A DNA stretch of 64,000 bases from Oscillospiraceae bacterium (GTDB lineage: Bacteria > Bacillota > Clostridia > Oscillospirales > SIG519), in NCBI GenBank assembly GCA_015067255.1, contig SVMS01000007.1:1352-65351 (forward strand), read 5' to 3'. The translations under genes and the position numbers were made by a program. This document shows, piece by piece, positions 40,958 through 53,792 of the stretch; within the stretch, counting starts at the first letter, position 1, and every line of letters starts with the position of its first letter. The notes under the pieces were generated by a model, which saw nothing but the letters and a program-made list of their open reading frames with translations, searched no databases and had not been told where the DNA came from.

Positions 40958-41202
40958 ATAAAAAAGCCTTTTCATCCCAAATGGGACGAAAAGGCTGAAT
41001 TTCCGTGGTACCACCCAAATTCCTGCTTAAAGCAGGCACTTTAAAAGCTTTTAACGGAGCCAAACCGTTGCCGCCTACCAGAAAACCTTCAACAGCACCG
41101 TTCACGAGCGAACTTCACTTAAAGCTCATATATGAATGCTCACAGCCGACGACATTCACTCTCTGAATATTCCTTCTAAGCTACTTTCCCGATCACAACG
41201 TT
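40958..41202 (-). promoter_or_regulatory. T-box leader (Phe) with terminator/antiterminator
   Basis: The minus strand has AATTTGGGTGGTACCACGG (T-box sequence, 41001-41021). The terminator is agccttttcgtccc/gggatgaaaaggct plus tttttt. Stem I has the AGAGAG and GNUGNGA elements, and a UUC codon sits in GAAGTTCGC. Confidence 0.85.
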
Positions 41203-41208
41203 TTTTTC

Positions 41209-42556: not shown

Positions 42557-43402
42557 CTAATTTTCTAAACGAATATAGTCCAATTTGCATAGTGCATAGC
42601 GATATTTGTAACCATTGTCAATGACATAAATGGAGCCATTTTCAATATCAACGATATGACGTGCTCCATCTTTTGTTGTAATCTTAACTTCGTCATAAGA
42701 CCAATGGTGTGATATTGAAATAGATTGAATATTGCTTCGATCCAGTATCCCGTTTGAAGTGGTGAATCTTAACGAATTATCACATACAATGCAGTGCAAA
42801 GATTTCCCCCACGAATTACTGTGAAGATAATCAGCGGTGATGCATTTCTCAAAAAAGGCGCTTGCATTATTTCCCAATGTAACTTTACCGTCACTTACAA
42901 TATGGGATATAAGCTCGTCTACGTTGTCAAACCACACGTTATCACTTTCGGTTTCGATATATTCCGATTCTTCGAAAAACACGACAGTGTTAATCCAAGC
43001 ATAATCCGGAATTTGTTTTCGGAGTAAGTAAACAGCTCGACCAAGCTGTTTGAATGGTGACTTGTGGACTTTGGTATGTATTTCATCCGTCCAACGGTCG
43101 CGTTTATATTGGATGAAGTTGCCGTTGCGGTCAACAAGTCTACCTTTCCAGCACTTGATCTCTATAGCAAATAGCTTATTCTTATAAAGAATCAAGCAGT
43201 CGATTTCCGCATTACCCTCTATTGTCTGAATAATAATATTCTTTTTGATTTCGCAATCAGGCAAACGAGATTGAATGGCATAGACGAATTCGTCCTCACC
43301 CAAATCTCCGTACTTTTTTGCCTGCGTTGTATGCGGAAGCGAAGGTTCACCCATTCTCGCAAAGCCTATTTTGATTTTATGAAAAAAGCTTCTAAGTCCC
43401 AT
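42557..43402 (-). CDS. NERD-domain (nuclease-related) protein
   Basis: GDLGEDEFVYAIQ..., EIDCLILYKNKLFAIEIKCW... matches the NERD pattern (G.GE ... EID.l ... IE.K). Confidence 0.8.
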   Translation of the reverse strand: MGLRSFFHKIKIGFARMGEPSLPHTTQAKKYGDLGEDEFVYAIQSRLPDCEIKKNIIIQTIEGNAEIDCLILYKNKLFAIEIKCWKGRLVDRNGNFIQYKRDRWTDEIHTKVHKSPFKQLGRAVYLLRKQIPDYAWINTVVFFEESEYIETESDNVWFDNVDELISHIVSDGKVTLGNNASAFFEKCITADYLHSNSWGKSLHCIVCDNSLRFTTSNGILDRSNIQSISISHHWSYDEVKITTKDGARHIVDIENGSIYVIDNGYKYRYALCKLDYIRLEN

Positions 43403-43538
43403 ACGATCAACCTAACTAAAAATTTTTACATTTTATTATATCATATTCTTATCTGTTTTTCAATGGCGATGCAATTATCTCTGGACTTATCAGATCTTTG
43501 TGGTATCCTTTGTGTTAAAAAACACAAGGAGAATAAAA

Positions 43539-43766
43539 ATGAACCAAGAAAAACAAAGAGAAGCATATCAAAAGATGCTCAAAAAACGCCCCGATATCTT
43601 AACTCCGATGAAAGCGGCTCGTTGGTCACCCGTAGGCAAGAATACAATCTACGCCGCACTCAAAAACGGTGAGATAGAATCCTATACCTATAAAGGCGGT
43701 TATATCTTCACCAAAGATGCTCTGATTGATTACCTCGTCAGGACCACAAATGATAAAGGCAAATGA
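43539..43766 (+). CDS. excisionase-type / MerR-like HTH DNA-binding protein
   Basis: ILTPMKAARWSPVGKNTIYAALKNGEIESYTYKGGYIFTKDALIDYL. RBS AAGGAG before the ATG at 43539. Confidence 0.7.
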   Translation: MNQEKQREAYQKMLKKRPDILTPMKAARWSPVGKNTIYAALKNGEIESYTYKGGYIFTKDALIDYLVRTTNDKGK

Positions 43767-44036
43767 TATACCCTCCGAGGTGATAAGAAATGTTGAGTAG
43801 CTTACTGTAAGTGCTGTCGGGCGAATAGGTGCGGTGTGTCTTGCATATTAGTAAACGTAAATGCGCGTGGATGCTAAACAACGGCTTCATCAAATGTCAA
43901 AACACTGGCAAGCACATAAGACTAACGCAAAAACTCTTCAAACAGAGCGGTGGCAAGTAACCCTTACCGCCAATTAAATTTAATATGGTTTAAAAGAAAA
44001 TTTGCTATTTGTATTCAAATATGATATAATGATTAT

Positions 44037-45107
44037 ATGAAATGGGGTGATGCTGTGAACGATATTTTTGAAGAATATTTGCGCGAAAAAGAACCGCAAA
44101 AAAAAGAAAAAAGTTATGCTTGGCATACCGCAATCGGTCTTCAAGCAGTTGATGGACTTAACACAAGTGAATACTTGATTGAAACCGCCAAAAAGAACAT
44201 TGACGGCGATATAACTTTTGAAGAAGCTAATGATTTAATTCACAGTTATTATAAAGAAAATATTGCGCATACAGATACTGACAGAACCGAAGAAGCTGAC
44301 AAGGTTTCGGTTCGCATAGCGCAGTTATTATCAGAAAAATCTTTCGTTTTTTCACCGGCGCAGTATATTTCAATTCATTCACAGTTGTTTAGGGATATTT
44401 ATAAACACGCAGGCAAAATCAGAGATTATAACATAACTAAAAATGAATGGGTACTTGACGGTGATACCGTTATGTACGGTGGCGCTTTGGATTTAAGAGC
44501 GACCTTGGATTATGATTTTTCGGTTGAAAAAGAGTTTTCGTATAAGAATCTTGGGGTGGAGGAAATCATAAAGCATTTAGCAACTTTTGTCTCTCGCCTT
44601 TGGCAAATTCATATCTTCTCCGAGGGTAACACAAGAGCGACCGCGGTTTTCTTTATAAAATACCTTCGCACGTTAGGCTTTGACGTTACCAATGATATCT
44701 TTGCTGAAAATGCTTGGTATTTTAGAAATGCTCTGGTACGTGCAAACTATACCAATCTTAAAAAAGGAGTACACGAAACAACCGAGTATTTGGAACTATT
44801 TTTGCGAAACCTATTGCTCGGTGAAAACAATCCGCTCAAAAACCGCGATATGCACATTAGTTGCTCGTTATCTTCCCCAAAGTGCAACGAACGAAACGAA
44901 AATTGCACTTTGAATTGCACTTTGGACGAAACGACAGTTTTAAATTTACTAAAATCTGATGGCAAACTAACACAAAAGAAAATTGCCGAAAGCATTAAAA
45001 AATCTGAAAGAACCGTTAAAACAATTACTGCTTCTCTTGAAAAGAAAGGCTTAATCACCAGAGTAAACGGTAAACGTTTCGGATATTGGAAAGTGAATAT
45101 CGATTAA
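44037..45107 (+). CDS. Fic-domain protein with an N-terminal VbhA-like segment and a C-terminal winged HTH; the Fic motif is degenerate
   Basis: HIFSEGNTRATA (44610-44645) compared with the consensus HxFx(D/E)GNGRxxR. The C-terminus has KLTQKKIAESIKKSERTVKTITASLEKKGLI. The start is ambiguous (ATG 44037 lies 6 nt after a TATAAT; GTG 44052 has RBS GGGGTG). Confidence 0.85.
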   Translation: MKWGDAVNDIFEEYLREKEPQKKEKSYAWHTAIGLQAVDGLNTSEYLIETAKKNIDGDITFEEANDLIHSYYKENIAHTDTDRTEEADKVSVRIAQLLSEKSFVFSPAQYISIHSQLFRDIYKHAGKIRDYNITKNEWVLDGDTVMYGGALDLRATLDYDFSVEKEFSYKNLGVEEIIKHLATFVSRLWQIHIFSEGNTRATAVFFIKYLRTLGFDVTNDIFAENAWYFRNALVRANYTNLKKGVHETTEYLELFLRNLLLGENNPLKNRDMHISCSLSSPKCNERNENCTLNCTLDETTVLNLLKSDGKLTQKKIAESIKKSERTVKTITASLEKKGLITRVNGKRFGYWKVNID

Positions 45108-51796: not shown

Positions 51797-51907
51797 ATGA
51801 CTAACCAAATTGACATTCTTATATTTGCAGGTCAAAGCAATATGCAAGGACAAACGGAGTGCTGTCCTACGCCAAACGAAGCAGGAAACGCACTTGCAAA
51901 ATTATAA
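51797..51907 (+). pseudogene. 36-codon N-terminal stub of a sialate-O-acetylesterase-like (GQSNM) esterase
   Basis: My translation gives MTNQIDILIFAGQSNMQGQTECCPTPNEAGNALAKL-stop. The catalytic-Ser block GQSNM is present but the rest of the enzyme is absent. A terminator hairpin follows at 51914-51945. Confidence 0.5.
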
Positions 51908-51994
51908 ACTAAAGAGCTGTTTTTTACAGCTCCTTTCTTTTATTAAAAATAGTGAAAATTTTTAAAATGAACTATATTCAAAGAAAGTATGCAA

Positions 51995-52038
51995 ACAAAA
52001 AACAGCACCTGATTCCATAAATGGACTCGGGTGCTGTT
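51995..52038 (-). terminator. terminator of the split HTH gene
   Basis: Hairpin aacagcacc...gggtgctgtt with a T run on the minus strand. It overlaps the stop codon. Confidence 0.7.
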
Positions 52039-52445
52039 AATTTTCGATTTCTAATATATCGTCTATGCCGCAGTTAAGAGCTAAACATATTCTTTCCAAA
52101 ACATAACTATCATATCTCTTCACCTTGTTTTTATAATGATTGTAGTTTGTCGAAACGCTGAAAAGCGTTTCAATAAGCCGATTTTATCGGCTTTGTGAAA
52201 TCAAATTCTATAAAATTTAATTTCACAAGACAATCATTGCAATGGTTATTGTCAAATTTTCTTTGAAAATTTGCTTCCAAATCATTGATTTGGTGTCGAA
52301 ACAGTATTTCGTATTACTGTTTCGACTAACTATAACCATTATAATAGTTATCAATAATTTGATACTGTATTCCCGTGCGTTTTGAAAGCTCATAGCGACT
52401 AATATTAAAGTTTGCAAGTGCTTTATCCAAACAAATTCTAATCAC
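52037..52445 (-). pseudogene. Cro/C1-type HTH gene (66 codons when repaired) interrupted by a 202-bp insertion
   Basis: GTG at 52445 with RBS GAGGTGA. The 5' part encodes VIRICLDKALANFNISRYELSKRTGIQYQIIDNYY. The 3' part encodes NKVKRYDSYVLERICLALNCGIDDILEIEN-stop (52037). As it stands, it terminates after 39 codons inside the insert. Confidence 0.7.
52137..52338. mobile_element. 202-bp MITE-like element: 20-nt TIRs, flanking TTATAA direct repeat, hairpin-rich, no ORF
   Basis: The TIRs tgattgtagtttgtcgaaac and reverse complement tggttatagttagtcgaaac match at 17 of 20. TTATAA lies at 52131-52136 and 52339-52344. The element carries two exact TGTCGAA boxes (52148-52154, 52294-52300) and a 12-bp perfect subterminal stem. 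Confidence 0.65.
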
Positions 52446-52556
52446 AAAATCACCTCACATATATATTTTAACCAATATATATGCACTTGACAATTTTCTT
52501 ATATAAATATATACTTATATAAAGATATAGGTAAAAAATAATAGAGCGGTAATAAA

Positions 52557-52739
52557 ATGATGTTTGTTGGAATAACCCGTCGTATTGACGAGCTTGGTCG
52601 CATTACAATTCCTTCGGAGATACGCAAAACTTATCAGCTGGGAAAGAATGATGAAGTAGAAATCTTAGGGACCGAGGATGGTATTCTGTTACGTGTCCCC
52701 AATATACAAATAACAAAATTAAATGAAGAAAAAGACTAA
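52557..52739 (+). CDS. AbrB/SpoVT-type swapped-hairpin DNA-binding protein, 60 aa (copy 1)
   Basis: GITRRIDELGRITIPSEIRKTYQL matches the AbrB N-domain signature (VRKVDELGRVVIPIELRRTL). It lacks the AbrB C-terminal domain. Confidence 0.85.
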   Translation: MMFVGITRRIDELGRITIPSEIRKTYQLGKNDEVEILGTEDGILLRVPNIQITKLNEEKD

Positions 52740-53127: not shown

Positions 53128-53448
53128 ATGGACAAGAAAGCATTGGGCAGTAAATTGAGAGAAGCCCGTAAGTCTAAGGGGTATACACAGGAAGTGCTTG
53201 CAGAAAAGGCAGATATCGGTGTTATGTACCTTGGAGAAATAGAACGTGGTATTAAGATGCCGAGTATGAATATCTTTATTAAGCTAATCGAAGCTTTGGA
53301 TATTTCAGCAGACTACGTGTTAAGAGATGAGCTTTCCTCGGGTAAAGAGTATGTGTTTGACGAGATTACAAATAAACTGGCAGGCTTAACTCCGCAACAG
53401 AGAAAGACCGCTGCGGATATTTTAGATGCATACCTACGCAATTTATAG
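53128..53448 (+). CDS. XRE-family (SinR-like) HTH regulator
   Basis: LREARKSKGYTQEVLAEKADIGVMYLGEIERG; RBS AGGAGTG. Confidence 0.85.
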   Translation: MDKKALGSKLREARKSKGYTQEVLAEKADIGVMYLGEIERGIKMPSMNIFIKLIEALDISADYVLRDELSSGKEYVFDEITNKLAGLTPQQRKTAADILDAYLRNL

Positions 53449-53530: not shown

Positions 53531-53609
53531 AAATTTTCATTATACAAGTGATAACATTGGCGTAAAGCATATAAAATATGCTATTAGCTAATATGAAAGA
53601 GGTAATAAA

Positions 53610-53792
53610 ATGATGTTTGTTGGAATATTCCGTCGCATTGACGAGCTTGGCCGCATTACAATTCCTTCAGAAATACGCAAAACTTATCAGTTGGAAAAGA
53701 ATGATGAGGTTGAAATTATAGGAACTGAAGAGGGTATCCTATTACGCGTTCCCAATATACAAATAACAAAATTGAATAAAGAAAATTTTTAA
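53610..53792 (+). CDS. AbrB/SpoVT-type DNA-binding protein, 60 aa (copy 2)
   Basis: 53 of 60 residues are identical to copy 1. The similarity starts exactly at the RBS (ggtaataaaatgatg) and ends at the stop. Confidence 0.85.
   Translation: MMFVGIFRRIDELGRITIPSEIRKTYQLEKNDEVEIIGTEEGILLRVPNIQITKLNKENF

What the first reader, a model, noticed from the sequence alone, without database searches (positions are those of the whole stretch)
52037..52445. Small HTH gene split by a 202-bp TIR-bounded miniature element; removing it restores the reading frame
**The split gene**
- The minus strand from GTG 52445 (RBS GAGGTGA) encodes VIRICLDKALANFNISRYELSKRTGIQYQIIDNYY. It then runs into NGYS-stop inside a 202-bp block (52137-52338).
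- Deleting the block plus one copy of its flanking TTATAA repeat joins the frame to K-NKVKRYDSYVLERICLALNCGIDDILEIEN-stop (52037). The result is a coherent 66-aa Cro/C1-like protein (107 nt + 94 nt = 67 codons).
- Deleting both TTATAA copies would instead create a TAA stop.

**The block**
- It has 20-nt terminal inverted repeats that match at 17 of 20.
- It is flanked by direct TTATAA copies (52131-52136 and 52339-52344).
- It has no ORF and is almost entirely hairpins. These include a perfect 12-bp subterminal stem gtcgaaacagta/tactgtttcgac.

This looks like a non-autonomous transposon (MITE) with a target-site duplication. No transposase lies in this window.
Basis: seen in the sequence. Interest (0 to 1): 0.7.

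Follow-up and report, generated by a model that had tools for sequence, protein, structure and literature searches.

The report
Small mobile repeat splits regulator gene
A 206-bp non-coding mobile DNA element, one copy of a family found in at least 69 gut Clostridia genomes, has jumped into and broken a small, highly conserved DNA-binding regulator gene; this is an ordinary kind of event, caused by an apparently undescribed repeat family with an unusually well-kept folded shape.

Summary
A 66-aa HTH_26 (Cro/C1-type) gene on the minus strand (52445 to 52037) is interrupted. Removing 208 bp restores a protein whose junction (…QIIDNYY|KNKVKRYD…) is invariant in 16 uninterrupted homologues; over 1,800 homologues were found. 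An orthologous locus (L128) has the empty site.

The insert belongs to a multi-copy family. Copies lie at unrelated loci, in both orientations. At least two other insertions break known genes (YjbR, DUF188). So the MITE reading is supported.

The 6-bp TTATAA "target-site duplication" is not supported. Across the family ATAATG…CATTAT is 98% conserved, while the outer TT/AA vary independently. Only 40% of copies have matching hexamers. The element is 206 bp (52135-52340), flanked by AT, inserted into a preferred palindromic TTATAA.

The element folds into two three-hairpin arms, and 42 of 82 base pairs show compensatory change. There is no strand or orientation bias and no Rfam match. No partner transposase was found. 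This is a new member of a known kind, of moderate interest.

The parts
52341..52445 (-). 5' part of the split HTH_26 gene: GTG start at 52445, codons 1-35, ending in ...AAC TAT TAT
   Evidence: Searches give the translation. One search shows alignment to intact 66-67 aa homologues. One search shows 87% DNA identity to the orthologous intact locus L128, extending into the promoter.
52037..52132 (-). 3' part of the split HTH_26 gene: AAA AAC AAG ... GAA AAT TAA, with the stop codon at 52037-52039
   Evidence: Joining it to 52341-52445 gives the 201-nt ORF. Against L128 there are 20 codons with synonymous-only differences and 6 with non-synonymous differences.
52135..52340 (-). The inserted element, 206 bp (AATGGTTATAG ... 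CTACAATCATT), given in the family's H1-to-H6 orientation, which here is the minus strand
   Evidence: The boundaries come from the step in conservation across 116-117 copies. They also fit the 208-bp net insertion fixed by the empty sites and by two other restored genes.
52341..52342 (.). AT dinucleotide on the gene-5' side of the element, one of the two copies of the AT repeat or crossover
   Evidence: AT is identical on both sides in 112 of 116 copies.
52133..52134 (.). AT dinucleotide on the gene-3' side of the element, the second copy
   Evidence: The empty sites carry TTATAA only once.
52319..52344 (.). Terminal inverted repeat arm at the H1 end, as reported by the repeat finder; it includes the flanking TT and the AT
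   Evidence: I1: 26 nt, 88% complementary to 52131-52156.
52131..52156 (.). Terminal inverted repeat arm at the H6 end; it includes the AT and the flanking AA
   Evidence: I1. A position-weight-matrix scan scored 40.1 and 39.3 out of a maximum 40.8.
52295..52326 (-). Hairpin H1 (GTCGAAACAGTA ... TACTGTTTCGAC), 12 bp, subterminal
   Evidence: I18. Helix 2 is 97.6% paired across the family.
52277..52293 (-). Hairpin H2 (CCAAATC ... GATTTGG)
   Evidence: Helix 3: CG/AT 86:26 at columns 54-69 and four pair types at columns 53-70.
52253..52273 (-). Hairpin H3 (CAAATTTTC ... GAAAATTTG)
   Evidence: Helix 4: GC/AT 61:51 at columns 75-93; 98.1% paired.
52230..52249 (-). Centre ATAACCATT-GC-AATGATTGT: an inverted pair of the terminal motif. 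Its left half pairs with the H1-end terminus and its right half with the H6-end terminus
   Evidence: Folds. Helices 1 and 5: AU/GC 60:50 at columns 9-102. CAATGA is nearly invariant.
52194..52227 (-). Hairpin H4, 15 bp in this copy
   Evidence: In helix 6, 14 of 15 pairs have changes on both sides.
52175..52193 (-). Hairpin H5 (AAAGCCGAT ... ATCGGCTT). It looks like a terminator in many copies, where it is A4-stem-T4
   Evidence: Helix 7: GC/AT 86:25 and AT/CG 85:29. The terminator-like shape is read from the alignment; it is not called in this copy.
52150..52173 (-). Hairpin H6 (TTGAAACGCT ... AGCGTTTCGA), subterminal
   Evidence: I23. Helix 8 is partly misaligned between subfamilies.
52465..52493 (-). 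Promoter-like site of the HTH gene (TTGTCA, 17 nt, TAAAAT), still intact. The RBS GAGGTGA lies at 52450-52456
   Evidence: The region is conserved in the orthologous locus L128.
51995..52038 (-). Likely intrinsic terminator of the HTH gene: an 18-nt imperfect inverted repeat followed by TTTTTTGTTT
   Evidence: I8, and the sequence. It is partly conserved in L128. The pattern scan does not call it.

Best explanation
The block is one copy of a non-autonomous mobile DNA element (a MITE-type repeat). It inserted into the preferred palindromic target TTATAA inside codons 34-36 of a small, highly conserved HTH_26 regulator gene.

The element proper is 206 bp (52135-52340). It has about 24-nt terminal inverted repeats and is flanked by the same AT dinucleotide on both sides. 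The net gain of 208 bp puts a stop four codons after the junction, so the gene now encodes at most a 39-aa N-terminal fragment.

**Shown**
- The insertion and its exact size.
- The family and its spread.
- The target preference.
- The conserved two-arm, eight-helix fold.

**Inferred**
- The element is moved in trans by a transposase encoded elsewhere that cuts the target with a 2-bp stagger at the central AT.
- The closest mechanistic analogue is IS30-type copy-out-paste-in. IS30 makes 2-bp repeats, prefers palindromic hot spots, and also inserts next to its own ends.
- The insertion is recent relative to the split from the nearest relative, and it inactivates the regulator.
For: **Insertion**
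- The reconstructed 66-aa protein matches HTH_26 at E = 1.2e-15.
- It has 1,809 homologues at E of 0.001 or better, with the best 120 listed at 76-91% identity.
- In an alignment with 16 intact homologues all six residues at the join (NYY|KNK) are invariant.
- Empty-site DNA in L001-L004 carries TTATAA once.
- L128 is an orthologous empty site with 87% and 80% identity that extends into the promoter and terminator.

**Family**
- These hold 116 aligned copies and 121 full-length regions, in 69 MAGs labelled Acutalibacteraceae, Oscillospiraceae, Ruminococcaceae or Clostridia, with up to 6 loci per MAG.

**Mobility**
- Flanks are unrelated.
- Orientation relative to neighbouring genes is unbiased: 28 / 26 / 21 / 17.
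- Independent insertions sit at different positions and in opposite orientation in the same intergenic region of two species.
- Tandem copies share one TTATAA.
- Removing the element plus one TTATAA restores whole YjbR (L121) and DUF188 (L086) domains across the junction.

**Ends and target**
- ATAATG / CATTAT is 98% conserved; the outer TT / AA are 75-85% conserved and independent of each other.

**No coding capacity, no known RNA**
- No conserved ORF.
- No Rfam match.

**Recency**
- Against L128 there are 20 synonymous-only and 6 non-synonymous codon differences.
- The split gene keeps every column that is invariant in the alignment.

**IS30 properties**
- Taken from PMC9333248.
Against: - No autonomous partner was found.
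  - No long TIR-bounded element was found in about 0.9 Mb around the copies or in the window, and no repeated transposase-like ORF among those loci.
  - tblastn with E. coli IS30 and IS5 transposases found nothing there.
  - Nothing was found in viral contigs, plasmids or phages.
- The 2-bp duplication cannot be told apart from a 2-bp crossover or from no duplication, because AT is invariant.
- Eight helices maintained by compensatory changes are more than a plain transposase substrate needs: 42 of 82 pairs, with 0 of 500 shuffles reaching this.
- At shared sites the element is 93-97% identical while the flanks are 57-99% (mostly 70-87%) over 300 bp and 76-92% by BLAST.
- Copy number in the window's own genome is unknown. 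All contigs of this strain that were read are identical and carry the insert.
Confidence: 0.7

Rival explanations
1. The element is mobile but is not moved by a DDE transposase. One option is a site-specific recombinase acting on the abutted ends, for example a serine recombinase exchanging at the central AT or a tyrosine recombinase with a TTATAA overlap. The other is a hairpin-recognising single-strand (HUH/Y1, IS200/IS605- or REP/RAYT-like) enzyme. In either case the flanking repeat would be a crossover or cleavage sequence, not a duplication.
For: - The joined ends would form a perfect palindrome, CAATCATT-AT-AATGATTG, and the preferred target ATTATAAT mimics its core.
- Tandem copies are joined exactly through this sequence.
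- Both ends have subterminal hairpins with an invariant GTCGAAAC/GTTTCGAC stem, preceded by (A/G)TAG.
- The hairpins covary with no GU/AC bias, as expected for a DNA-level structure.
- No transposase partner was found.
Against: - Beyond +/-4 bp the target shows almost no similarity to the ends.
- The 18 nt outside the hairpins are true inverted repeats, and conservation is symmetric at both ends. IS200/IS605-type elements have asymmetric ends and no TIRs (own knowledge).
- A self-complementary AT core would give a serine recombinase no polarity (own knowledge).
- No recombinase or Y1 gene was seen in the window.
Confidence: 0.15
2. The family is primarily a functional structured module that spreads as a mobile element and is kept by selection on the host. 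It could be a non-coding RNA, or a UTR, terminator or stability element. On this view the copy in the HTH gene is a by-product.
For: - 90.8% of cells are paired. 42 of 82 pairs have double-sided changes, against 25.8 +/- 2.2 in shuffles and 21-25 when the partners are slid.
- z is about -13 to -14 for folding.
- The element is more conserved than the flanking, mostly coding, DNA at shared sites.
- Many copies sit within 30 nt of a start or exactly at a stop codon.
- H5 looks like a bidirectional terminator in many copies.
- The review PMC10969869 notes that MITE transcripts form stable stem-loops and may act as terminators or regulators.
Against: - There is no orientation bias relative to neighbouring genes.
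- There is no excess of G-U over A-C, about 68 versus 51 once one ambiguous pair is excluded, so no transcribed strand is indicated.
- No Rfam family matches.
- Some copies destroy genes.
- High identity at shared regions is partly explained by independent recent insertions.
Confidence: 0.1
3. The interruption is harmless because the 208 nt are removed again, and the HTH gene is still functional. Removal could be intron-like at the RNA level, or by programmed or precise DNA excision.
For: - Both gene halves are intact and show mostly synonymous change against the orthologue.
- The promoter, RBS and terminator are intact.
- The insert is flanked by repeats that would allow seamless removal.
Against: - There is no match to any intron or ribozyme family.
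- 206 bp with this architecture is too small for group I or II introns (own knowledge).
- The same family sits mostly in intergenic DNA in both orientations.
- In L054 the similarly interrupted DUF188 gene has decayed further, with a deletion of about 187 nt relative to L086.
- Every contig of this strain that was read carries the insert.
Confidence: 0.03
4. The insert is an assembly artefact, a mis-join of a repeat into the gene.
For: None specific. Repeats can mislead assemblers.
Against: - The same 771-bp interval is 100% identical in independent assemblies from JGI and ENA samples.
- The junctions fall exactly at the family's ends and at its preferred target.
Confidence: 0.01

Closest known systems
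Bacterial MITEs in general, e.g. Correia elements of Neisseria, RUP/BOX/SPRITE of pneumococcus, ERIC, QMITE of Coxiella (review PMC10969869; Correia and RUP details from own knowledge)
   Same: - Small, AT-rich and without an ORF.
- Terminal inverted repeats.
- Many copies per genome, mostly intergenic, with occasional intragenic copies.
- The predicted transcript or single strand folds very stably.
- Some copies carry terminator-like hairpins.
   Different: - The flanking repeat is AT inside a palindromic TTATAA hot spot, not the TA of IS630/mariner-derived MITEs. That was tested and rejected by the 208-bp net size.
- The architecture has two arms, with an inverted pair of the terminal motif in the centre.
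- Eight helices are kept by compensatory change.
- No parent IS is known.
IS30 family insertion sequences, copy-out-paste-in (PMC9333248)
   Same: - 2-bp direct repeats from a 2-bp staggered attack.
- Preference for palindromic hot spots.
- A second preference for inserting next to its own inverted repeats, which gives end-to-end junctions like the tandem copies seen here and like the element's own centre.
   Different: - No IS30-type transposase was found near any copy.
- The IS30 ends of E. coli (TGTAGATTCAATTGGTCAACGC) share only a loose resemblance (TGTAG ... GTC.AACGC) with this element's ends.
- Membership is therefore untested.
Rickettsia palindromic elements (RPE) and other intragenic MITEs (PMC10969869)
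   Same: A small palindromic repeat found inside protein-coding genes.
   Different: RPEs usually insert in frame and are translated as part of the protein. This copy introduces a stop after four codons, and the other intragenic copies also break the frame.
REPINs / REP sequences mobilised by RAYT, and IS200/IS605-derived palindrome-associated elements (own knowledge)
   Same: - Inverted pair of hairpin units.
- An (A/G)TAG just 5' of each terminal hairpin.
- Hairpins maintained by Watson-Crick covariation without G-U bias.
   Different: - About twice the size.
- True 18-nt TIRs outside the hairpins.
- Symmetric end conservation.
- AT-rich target.
- No Y1 transposase seen.
bcr1 repeat of the Bacillus cereus group (own knowledge, not checked here)
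   Same: A Firmicute repeat of about 150-200 bp with an AT-rich specific target (TTTAT), a stable predicted fold, and mobile-element behaviour without a known transposase.
   Different: - Different sequence and different hosts.
- A 5-bp duplication.
- No two-arm architecture is reported for it.

Membership tests
MITE (non-autonomous TIR transposon of bacteria) | Small size (under about 500 bp) and no coding capacity | tested here: met
   206 bp. Only short, non-conserved ORFs. Family lengths including both hexamers are 202-216 bp.
MITE (non-autonomous TIR transposon of bacteria) | Terminal inverted repeats | tested here: met
   23 of 26 in the window. A conserved 24-nt end motif at both ends of 116 copies.
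MITE (non-autonomous TIR transposon of bacteria) | Many copies at unrelated loci within and between genomes | tested here: met
The window's own genome could not be counted.
MITE (non-autonomous TIR transposon of bacteria) | Filled versus empty sites | tested here: met
   Orthologous empty site L128. Intact homologues. YjbR and DUF188 domains restored by removing the element.
MITE (non-autonomous TIR transposon of bacteria) | Target-site duplication | tested here: inconclusive
   A 6-bp or 4-bp duplication is rejected: hexamers are identical in 46 of 116 copies and TATA in 77 of 116. A 2-bp AT repeat fits 112 of 116 copies, but because AT is invariant it cannot be told from a crossover or from no duplication.
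MITE (non-autonomous TIR transposon of bacteria) | An autonomous partner IS with the same ends | tested here: inconclusive
   None found in the window, in 0.9 Mb of loci, in viral contigs, plasmids or phages. Whole genomes could not be searched.
IS630 / Tc1-mariner-derived MITE (Stowaway-like) | TA target duplicated symmetrically next to the TIRs | tested here: not met
   A symmetric TA model predicts a net insertion of 206 or 210 bp and an empty site of TTATATAA or TTAA. The observed net is 208 bp with TTATAA in the empty sites, and the frame is restored in three genes.
IS30 family derivative | 2-3 bp repeats, palindromic hot spot, insertion next to own IRs | tested here: inconclusive
   The AT repeat, the TTATAA consensus and end-to-end tandem junctions fit. 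These properties are shared with other possible mechanisms.
IS30 family derivative | IS30-type DDE transposase with matching IRs | tested here: inconclusive
   tblastn with E. coli InsI found nothing in the loci or the window. Complete genomes were not searched.
IS200/IS605-type palindrome-associated element or REPIN | Subterminal hairpins with asymmetric ends, no TIRs, insertion 3' of a fixed tetra- or pentanucleotide | tested here: not met
   Hairpins are present, but the 18 nt outside them are inverted repeats, and both ends show the same symmetric step in conservation.
Known structured RNA family (Rfam 15), including introns and ribozymes | Match to a covariance model at or near its gathering score | tested here: not met
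   The only gathering-score hit in the window is a T-box at 40979-41205. Within the element itself the best match is 21 bits against a cut-off of 47; the best in the scanned 51900-52600 region is 24 bits against a cut-off of 100, just outside the element.
HTH_26 (PF13443) Cro/C1-type regulator (the interrupted gene) | Full-length domain match after reconstruction | tested here: met
   E = 1.2e-15, residues 6-65 on profile positions 2-61 of 63. No NCBIfam name. Only weak PDB relatives, 5y6a/5y69 at E about 1e-3.

The most novel reading that the evidence does not exclude
The family is not a plain transposase substrate. It is a structure-dependent mobile element whose eight covarying helices and central end-to-end motif are required for its own propagation or for a host function. 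It might move as a folded single strand, or through a recombinase acting on the palindromic joint, or act as a mobile non-coding RNA or terminator module kept by selection. It would have no protein-coding parent.
Probability: 0.15. Interest if true: 0.7.

Novelty: new member of a known kind. Interest (0 to 1): 0.4.

Why it matters
**For annotation**
- The locus holds a recent pseudogene of a very conserved small regulator, not two small ORFs. Gene callers left the interval empty.
- The repeat family is apparently undescribed. It is spread through uncultured ruminant-gut Acutalibacteraceae and will recur in their MAGs, where it can break contigs and genes.

**For mobile-element biology**
- The family offers a clean data set: over 100 copies, several subfamilies, empty sites and tandem joints.
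- The data set bears on an element with an unusual AT/TTATAA target, a two-arm fold and strong compensatory evolution but no known transposase.
- If the partner or an RNA role were found, the family would say something about how structure is maintained in selfish repeats.

As it stands this is a well-documented but ordinary MITE insertion.

Tried and rejected
1. **TA (mariner/IS630-type), 4-bp TATA and 6-bp TTATAA duplications.** Rejected by the net size and family statistics.
2. **Known RNA families.** Nothing found.
3. **Partner transposase.**
   - A PWM scan for ends found only short elements, one half copy and contig-cut tandems.
   - A relaxed 15-nt end scan gave only chance pairs.
   - All-against-all comparison of 680 ORFs gave only syntenic orthologues.
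   - tblastn with IS30 and IS5 transposases found nothing.
   - Viral contigs gave 0 hits. Plasmids gave only 38-nt chance matches in Proteobacteria. Phages gave none.
4. **Empty allele of this very strain in metagenome contigs.** 0 hits. A second scan with the filled pattern also failed to return the window's own locus. That collection therefore does not hold these samples and the negative means nothing.
5. **Strand assignment from G-U versus A-C counts.** No clear bias.
6. **Independent half-units.** Only one was found, L073 1776-1873. The similarity of the two arms to each other is modest: 69% against 59.6 +/- 2.6% for shuffles.
7. **In-situ inversion at shared sites.** Rejected. The two copies lie 35-50 nt apart, so they are independent insertions.
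8. **Spanning-ORF screen for other gene disruptions.** It was noisy, flagging 27 of 117. Only YjbR and DUF188 were confirmed by Pfam. A third candidate, L108 (a membrane protein), had no Pfam hit.
9. **Literature searches for this family.** Nothing found.
10. **Organism name.** The cluster look-up returned no names.
Full report
**1. The observation**

The minus strand from GTG 52445, preceded by GAGGTGA at 52456-52450, encodes VIRICLDKALANFNISRYELSKRTGIQYQIIDNYY. It then reads NGYS-stop inside the block.
- Deleting 52137-52338 plus one flanking TTATAA joins it in frame to KNKVKRYDSYVLERICLALNCGIDDILEIEN-stop. The result is 201 nt, or 66 aa.
- Deleting both hexamers creates a stop.
- The ends match 17 of 20, or 23 of 26 when the hexamers are included. 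The 12-bp stem is perfect.
- The block occurs once in the window.
- It folds far better than shuffled sequence, with z of -13 to -14 and 0 of 200 shuffles as good.

**2. It is an insertion**

The reconstructed protein is a full-length HTH_26 domain (E = 1.2e-15).
- It has 1,809 database relatives at E of 0.001 or better. The best 120 listed are 65-95 aa, mostly 66-67 aa, and 76-91% identical.
- In an alignment with 16 of them, every residue from R17 to D43 except S21, K38 and K40 is invariant. The six residues at the join, NYY|KNK, are all invariant.
- DNA of four intact genes reads ...AAT TAT TAT AAA AAY AAA..., with TTATAA once.
- The 565-bp contig L128 is the orthologous locus of a relative. 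Identity is 87% and 80%, and it extends upstream into the promoter (TTGTCA-17-TAAAAT) and downstream into the terminator. The gene there is uninterrupted.
- Between the window's two halves and L128, 20 codons differ synonymously and 6 non-synonymously. The gene was therefore under purifying selection for most of that divergence, and the insertion is comparatively recent.
- All assemblies that carry the neighbouring GDSL gene with an identical product have the same gene neighbourhood. The three that were read are 100% identical to the window, including the insert.

**3. It belongs to a large family**

A pattern built from the two hairpin stems and one end was scanned over one genome per species.
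One, from an Acidiferrales MAG, was a chance hit at 36% identity.
- The rest gave 116 alignable copies and, by BLAST, 121 full-length regions, three contig-cut tandems and one half copy.
- They come from 69 MAGs labelled Acutalibacteraceae, Oscillospiraceae, Ruminococcaceae, Eubacteriales or Clostridia. Most are from sheep, goat, cattle and deer guts, with up to six loci per MAG.
- The window copy is 75-88% identical to them.
- The window itself is core chromosome of a spore-former: sigF operon, SpoIIP, GPR, SASP, rpsL-rpsG-fusA-tuf, pheST with a T-box. No transposase or recombinase family appeared among its called genes or ORFs of 180 aa or more that were examined.

**4. Boundaries and the "duplication"**

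TTATAA is its own reverse complement, so in a single copy it can be read either as a direct repeat or as part of the inverted repeat.

The family statistics decide between these readings:

| Position | Left side | Right side |
|---|---|---|
| Outer dinucleotide | T 79%, T 85% | A 81%, A 75% |
| Inner four bases | A, T, A, A at 98-99% | T, T, A, T at 98% |

- The outer dinucleotides vary independently of each other. Both were consensus in 45 copies, against 51 expected under independence.
- They are not complementary to each other (1 of 70 departing copies).
- Hexamers are identical in only 46 of 116 copies and TATA in 77 of 116, whereas the central AT is identical in 112 of 116.
- The net insertion is fixed at 208 bp by the empty sites. 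It is fixed independently by two other interrupted genes, where removing the element plus one hexamer restores a complete YjbR domain (L121) and a complete DUF188 domain (L086) across the junction.

With symmetric ends, this leaves two possibilities: a 206-bp element (AATG...CATT; 52135-52340) flanked by a 2-bp AT repeat, or a 208-bp element with no duplication. A symmetric TA duplication, as in IS630/mariner-type elements, predicts 206 or 210 bp and is excluded. The target consensus is the palindrome (A)TT-AT-AA(T).

**5. Architecture**

Read on the window's minus strand, the element runs in this order:
- an 18-nt outer end;
- H1, with the invariant stem GTCGAAAC/GTTTCGAC;
- H2 and H3;
- a centre, ...ATAACCATT-GC-AATGATTGT...;
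- H4 and H5;
- H6, again with GTCGAAAC/GTTTCGAC;
- the outer end in reverse.

The centre is an inverted pair of the terminal motif. In the predicted folds its left half pairs with the left terminus and its right half pairs with the right terminus. This gives two arms, each a closing stem around three hairpins.

On the 117-sequence alignment, this structure was counted:

| Measure | Observed | Control |
|---|---|---|
| Cells paired | 90.8% | 33-47% when partners are slid |
| Pairs with changes on both sides | 42 of 82 | 25.8 +/- 2.2 in shuffles (0 of 500 reach it) |
| Covariation score | 0.184 | 0.092 in shuffles; 0.058 or less when slid |

- Clear swaps occur in every helix, for example CG/AT 86:26, GC/AT 61:51, AT/CG 89:22 and GC/AT 86:25. 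This includes the closing stems (AU/GC 60:50).
- Many of these swaps separate subfamilies, so the number of independent events is smaller than the number of cells.
- G-U and A-C departures are about equal, roughly 68 versus 51 after setting aside one ambiguous pair.
- Copies show no orientation preference relative to neighbouring genes: 28 / 26 / 21 / 17.

The constraint on structure is therefore real, but nothing identifies a transcribed strand.

The two arms resemble each other only modestly: 69% against 59.6 +/- 2.6% for shuffles, mainly at the termini and the first hairpin. Half-elements are almost never found alone. The two-arm unit is what moves.

**6. Behaviour in genomes**

- Most copies are intergenic, often within 30 nt of a start codon or overlapping a stop codon. 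The hexamer contains TAA on both strands.
- A few copies break genes: this window, L121, and L086 with its relative L054. In L054 the gene has decayed further.
- Tandem copies are joined end to end through a single TTATAA.
- In two species pairs the same intergenic region carries the element at positions 35-50 nt apart and in opposite orientation. These are independent insertions.
- At shared sites the element is 93-97% identical. The surrounding DNA is 57-99% (mostly 70-87%) identical over 300-bp flanks and 76-92% by BLAST. This fits recent activity of very similar source copies in several lineages, homogenisation, or selection on the element.

**7. What moves it**

No candidate was found.
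- No long element bounded by the same ends was found in the window or in about 0.9 Mb around the copies, and no repeated transposase-like ORF among those loci.
- tblastn with the IS30 and IS5 transposases of E. coli found nothing.
- There was no match in viral contigs, plasmids or phages.
- The literature searches found no description of this family.

The best-supported mechanism is inferred, not shown. It is mobilisation in trans by a DDE transposase that attacks the target with a 2-bp stagger at the central AT.

The closest described behaviour is that of IS30. IS30 produces 2-bp repeats, prefers palindromic hot spots, and also inserts next to its own inverted repeats to form end-to-end junctions (PMC9333248). 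Membership in that family is untested. The ends share only a loose resemblance with IS30's.

Three alternatives cannot be excluded:
- a recombinase acting on the palindromic joint CAATCATT-AT-AATGATTG;
- a hairpin-recognising single-strand enzyme;
- a host-selected RNA or terminator module.

**8. Consequence at this locus**

- The promoter, RBS and terminator of the HTH gene are intact. Translation, however, stops four codons into the element.
- That leaves a 39-aa fragment lacking the C-terminal 31 residues of the 66-aa protein, that is positions 36-61 of the 63-position HTH_26 profile.
- The gene is best annotated as a recent pseudogene.
- It lies divergent from one of two duplicated AbrB/SpoVT-like genes. 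Whether it regulated that gene is unknown.

**9. Comparison and verdict**

The element meets the operational definition of a bacterial MITE. It is small, has no ORF, has TIRs, is multi-copy and has empty sites, and it folds stably as reviewed in PMC10969869.

It differs from the well-known families in three ways:
- its AT/TTATAA target;
- its two-arm design with a central end-to-end motif;
- the extent of compensatory change.

This is a new member of a known kind. The 202-bp limits and the 6-bp duplication need correcting.

**Caveats**
- The window's own genome could not be searched.
- The negative search for an empty allele is uninformative, because that collection does not hold the window's own locus.

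Noticed in passing
window 52537-52732 and 53590-53785: A 196-nt direct repeat (87% identical) duplicates a 60-aa AbrB/SpoVT-like gene (52557-52739 and 53610-53792; Pfam MazE_antitoxin, NCBIfam AbrB domain). The first copy is divergent from the split HTH_26 gene. The second follows a 106-aa HTH_3 gene (53128-53448).
   Followed up: partly
window 40979-41205 (-): A T-box leader (131.5 bits, gathering score 93) lies upstream of pheS/pheT. It is the only Rfam family in the window that reaches its gathering score.
   Followed up: no
L018 3142-3355 vs L091 2278-2490; L028 1700-1912 vs L056 4467-4680: The same intergenic region in two species carries the element in opposite orientation. In the L018/L091 pair the two insertion points lie 35-50 nt apart. 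These are independent insertions, not in-situ inversion.
   Followed up: yes
L008/L038/L114, L024/L046, L060/L061, L054/L086: At shared insertion sites the element is 93-97% identical between species, while the 300-bp flanks are mostly 70-87% identical. The element is kept more similar than the neighbouring, mostly coding, DNA.
   Followed up: partly
L070 5003-5306, L083 1-348, L127 2170-2463, L084 4774-5007: Copies are joined end to end through a single shared TTATAA (...CGTT-AT-AATG...). In L084 the second copy is a degenerate remnant.
   Followed up: partly
L073 1776-1873: This is the only solo half-element (the H6-H5-H4 arm) among 125 family regions. A full copy lies about 450 bp further on, at 2310-2513.
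   Followed up: partly
L050 3643-3856 and L102 2553-2765: The flanks of these two copies are themselves inverted repeats (AGGTTTGTC.../...GACAAACCT and ACCACCACAAGTC.../...GACTCGTGGTGGT). The element landed in the loop of a terminator-like palindrome.
   Followed up: no
L121 6419-6632; L086 2074-2286 and L054 3334-3544; L108 4243-4456: Other copies interrupt genes: YjbR (L121) and DUF188/YaiI (L086). In L054 the same DUF188 gene also has a deletion of about 187 nt. L108 may split a small membrane protein, but it had no Pfam hit.
   Followed up: partly
window 42557-45107: A NERD-domain protein (42557-43402, -) and a Fic/DOC protein with a winged-helix tail (44037-45107, +) lie next to each other. 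A PemK/MazF-type toxin gene lies further off, near 32 kb by position in locus L133.
   Followed up: no
Metagenome-contig collection: A pattern that matches the window's own filled locus returned only two unrelated contigs (JAEIGA01). That collection therefore does not contain the JGI samples in which this locus was found by protein look-up, and negatives from it say nothing about this strain.
   Followed up: yes
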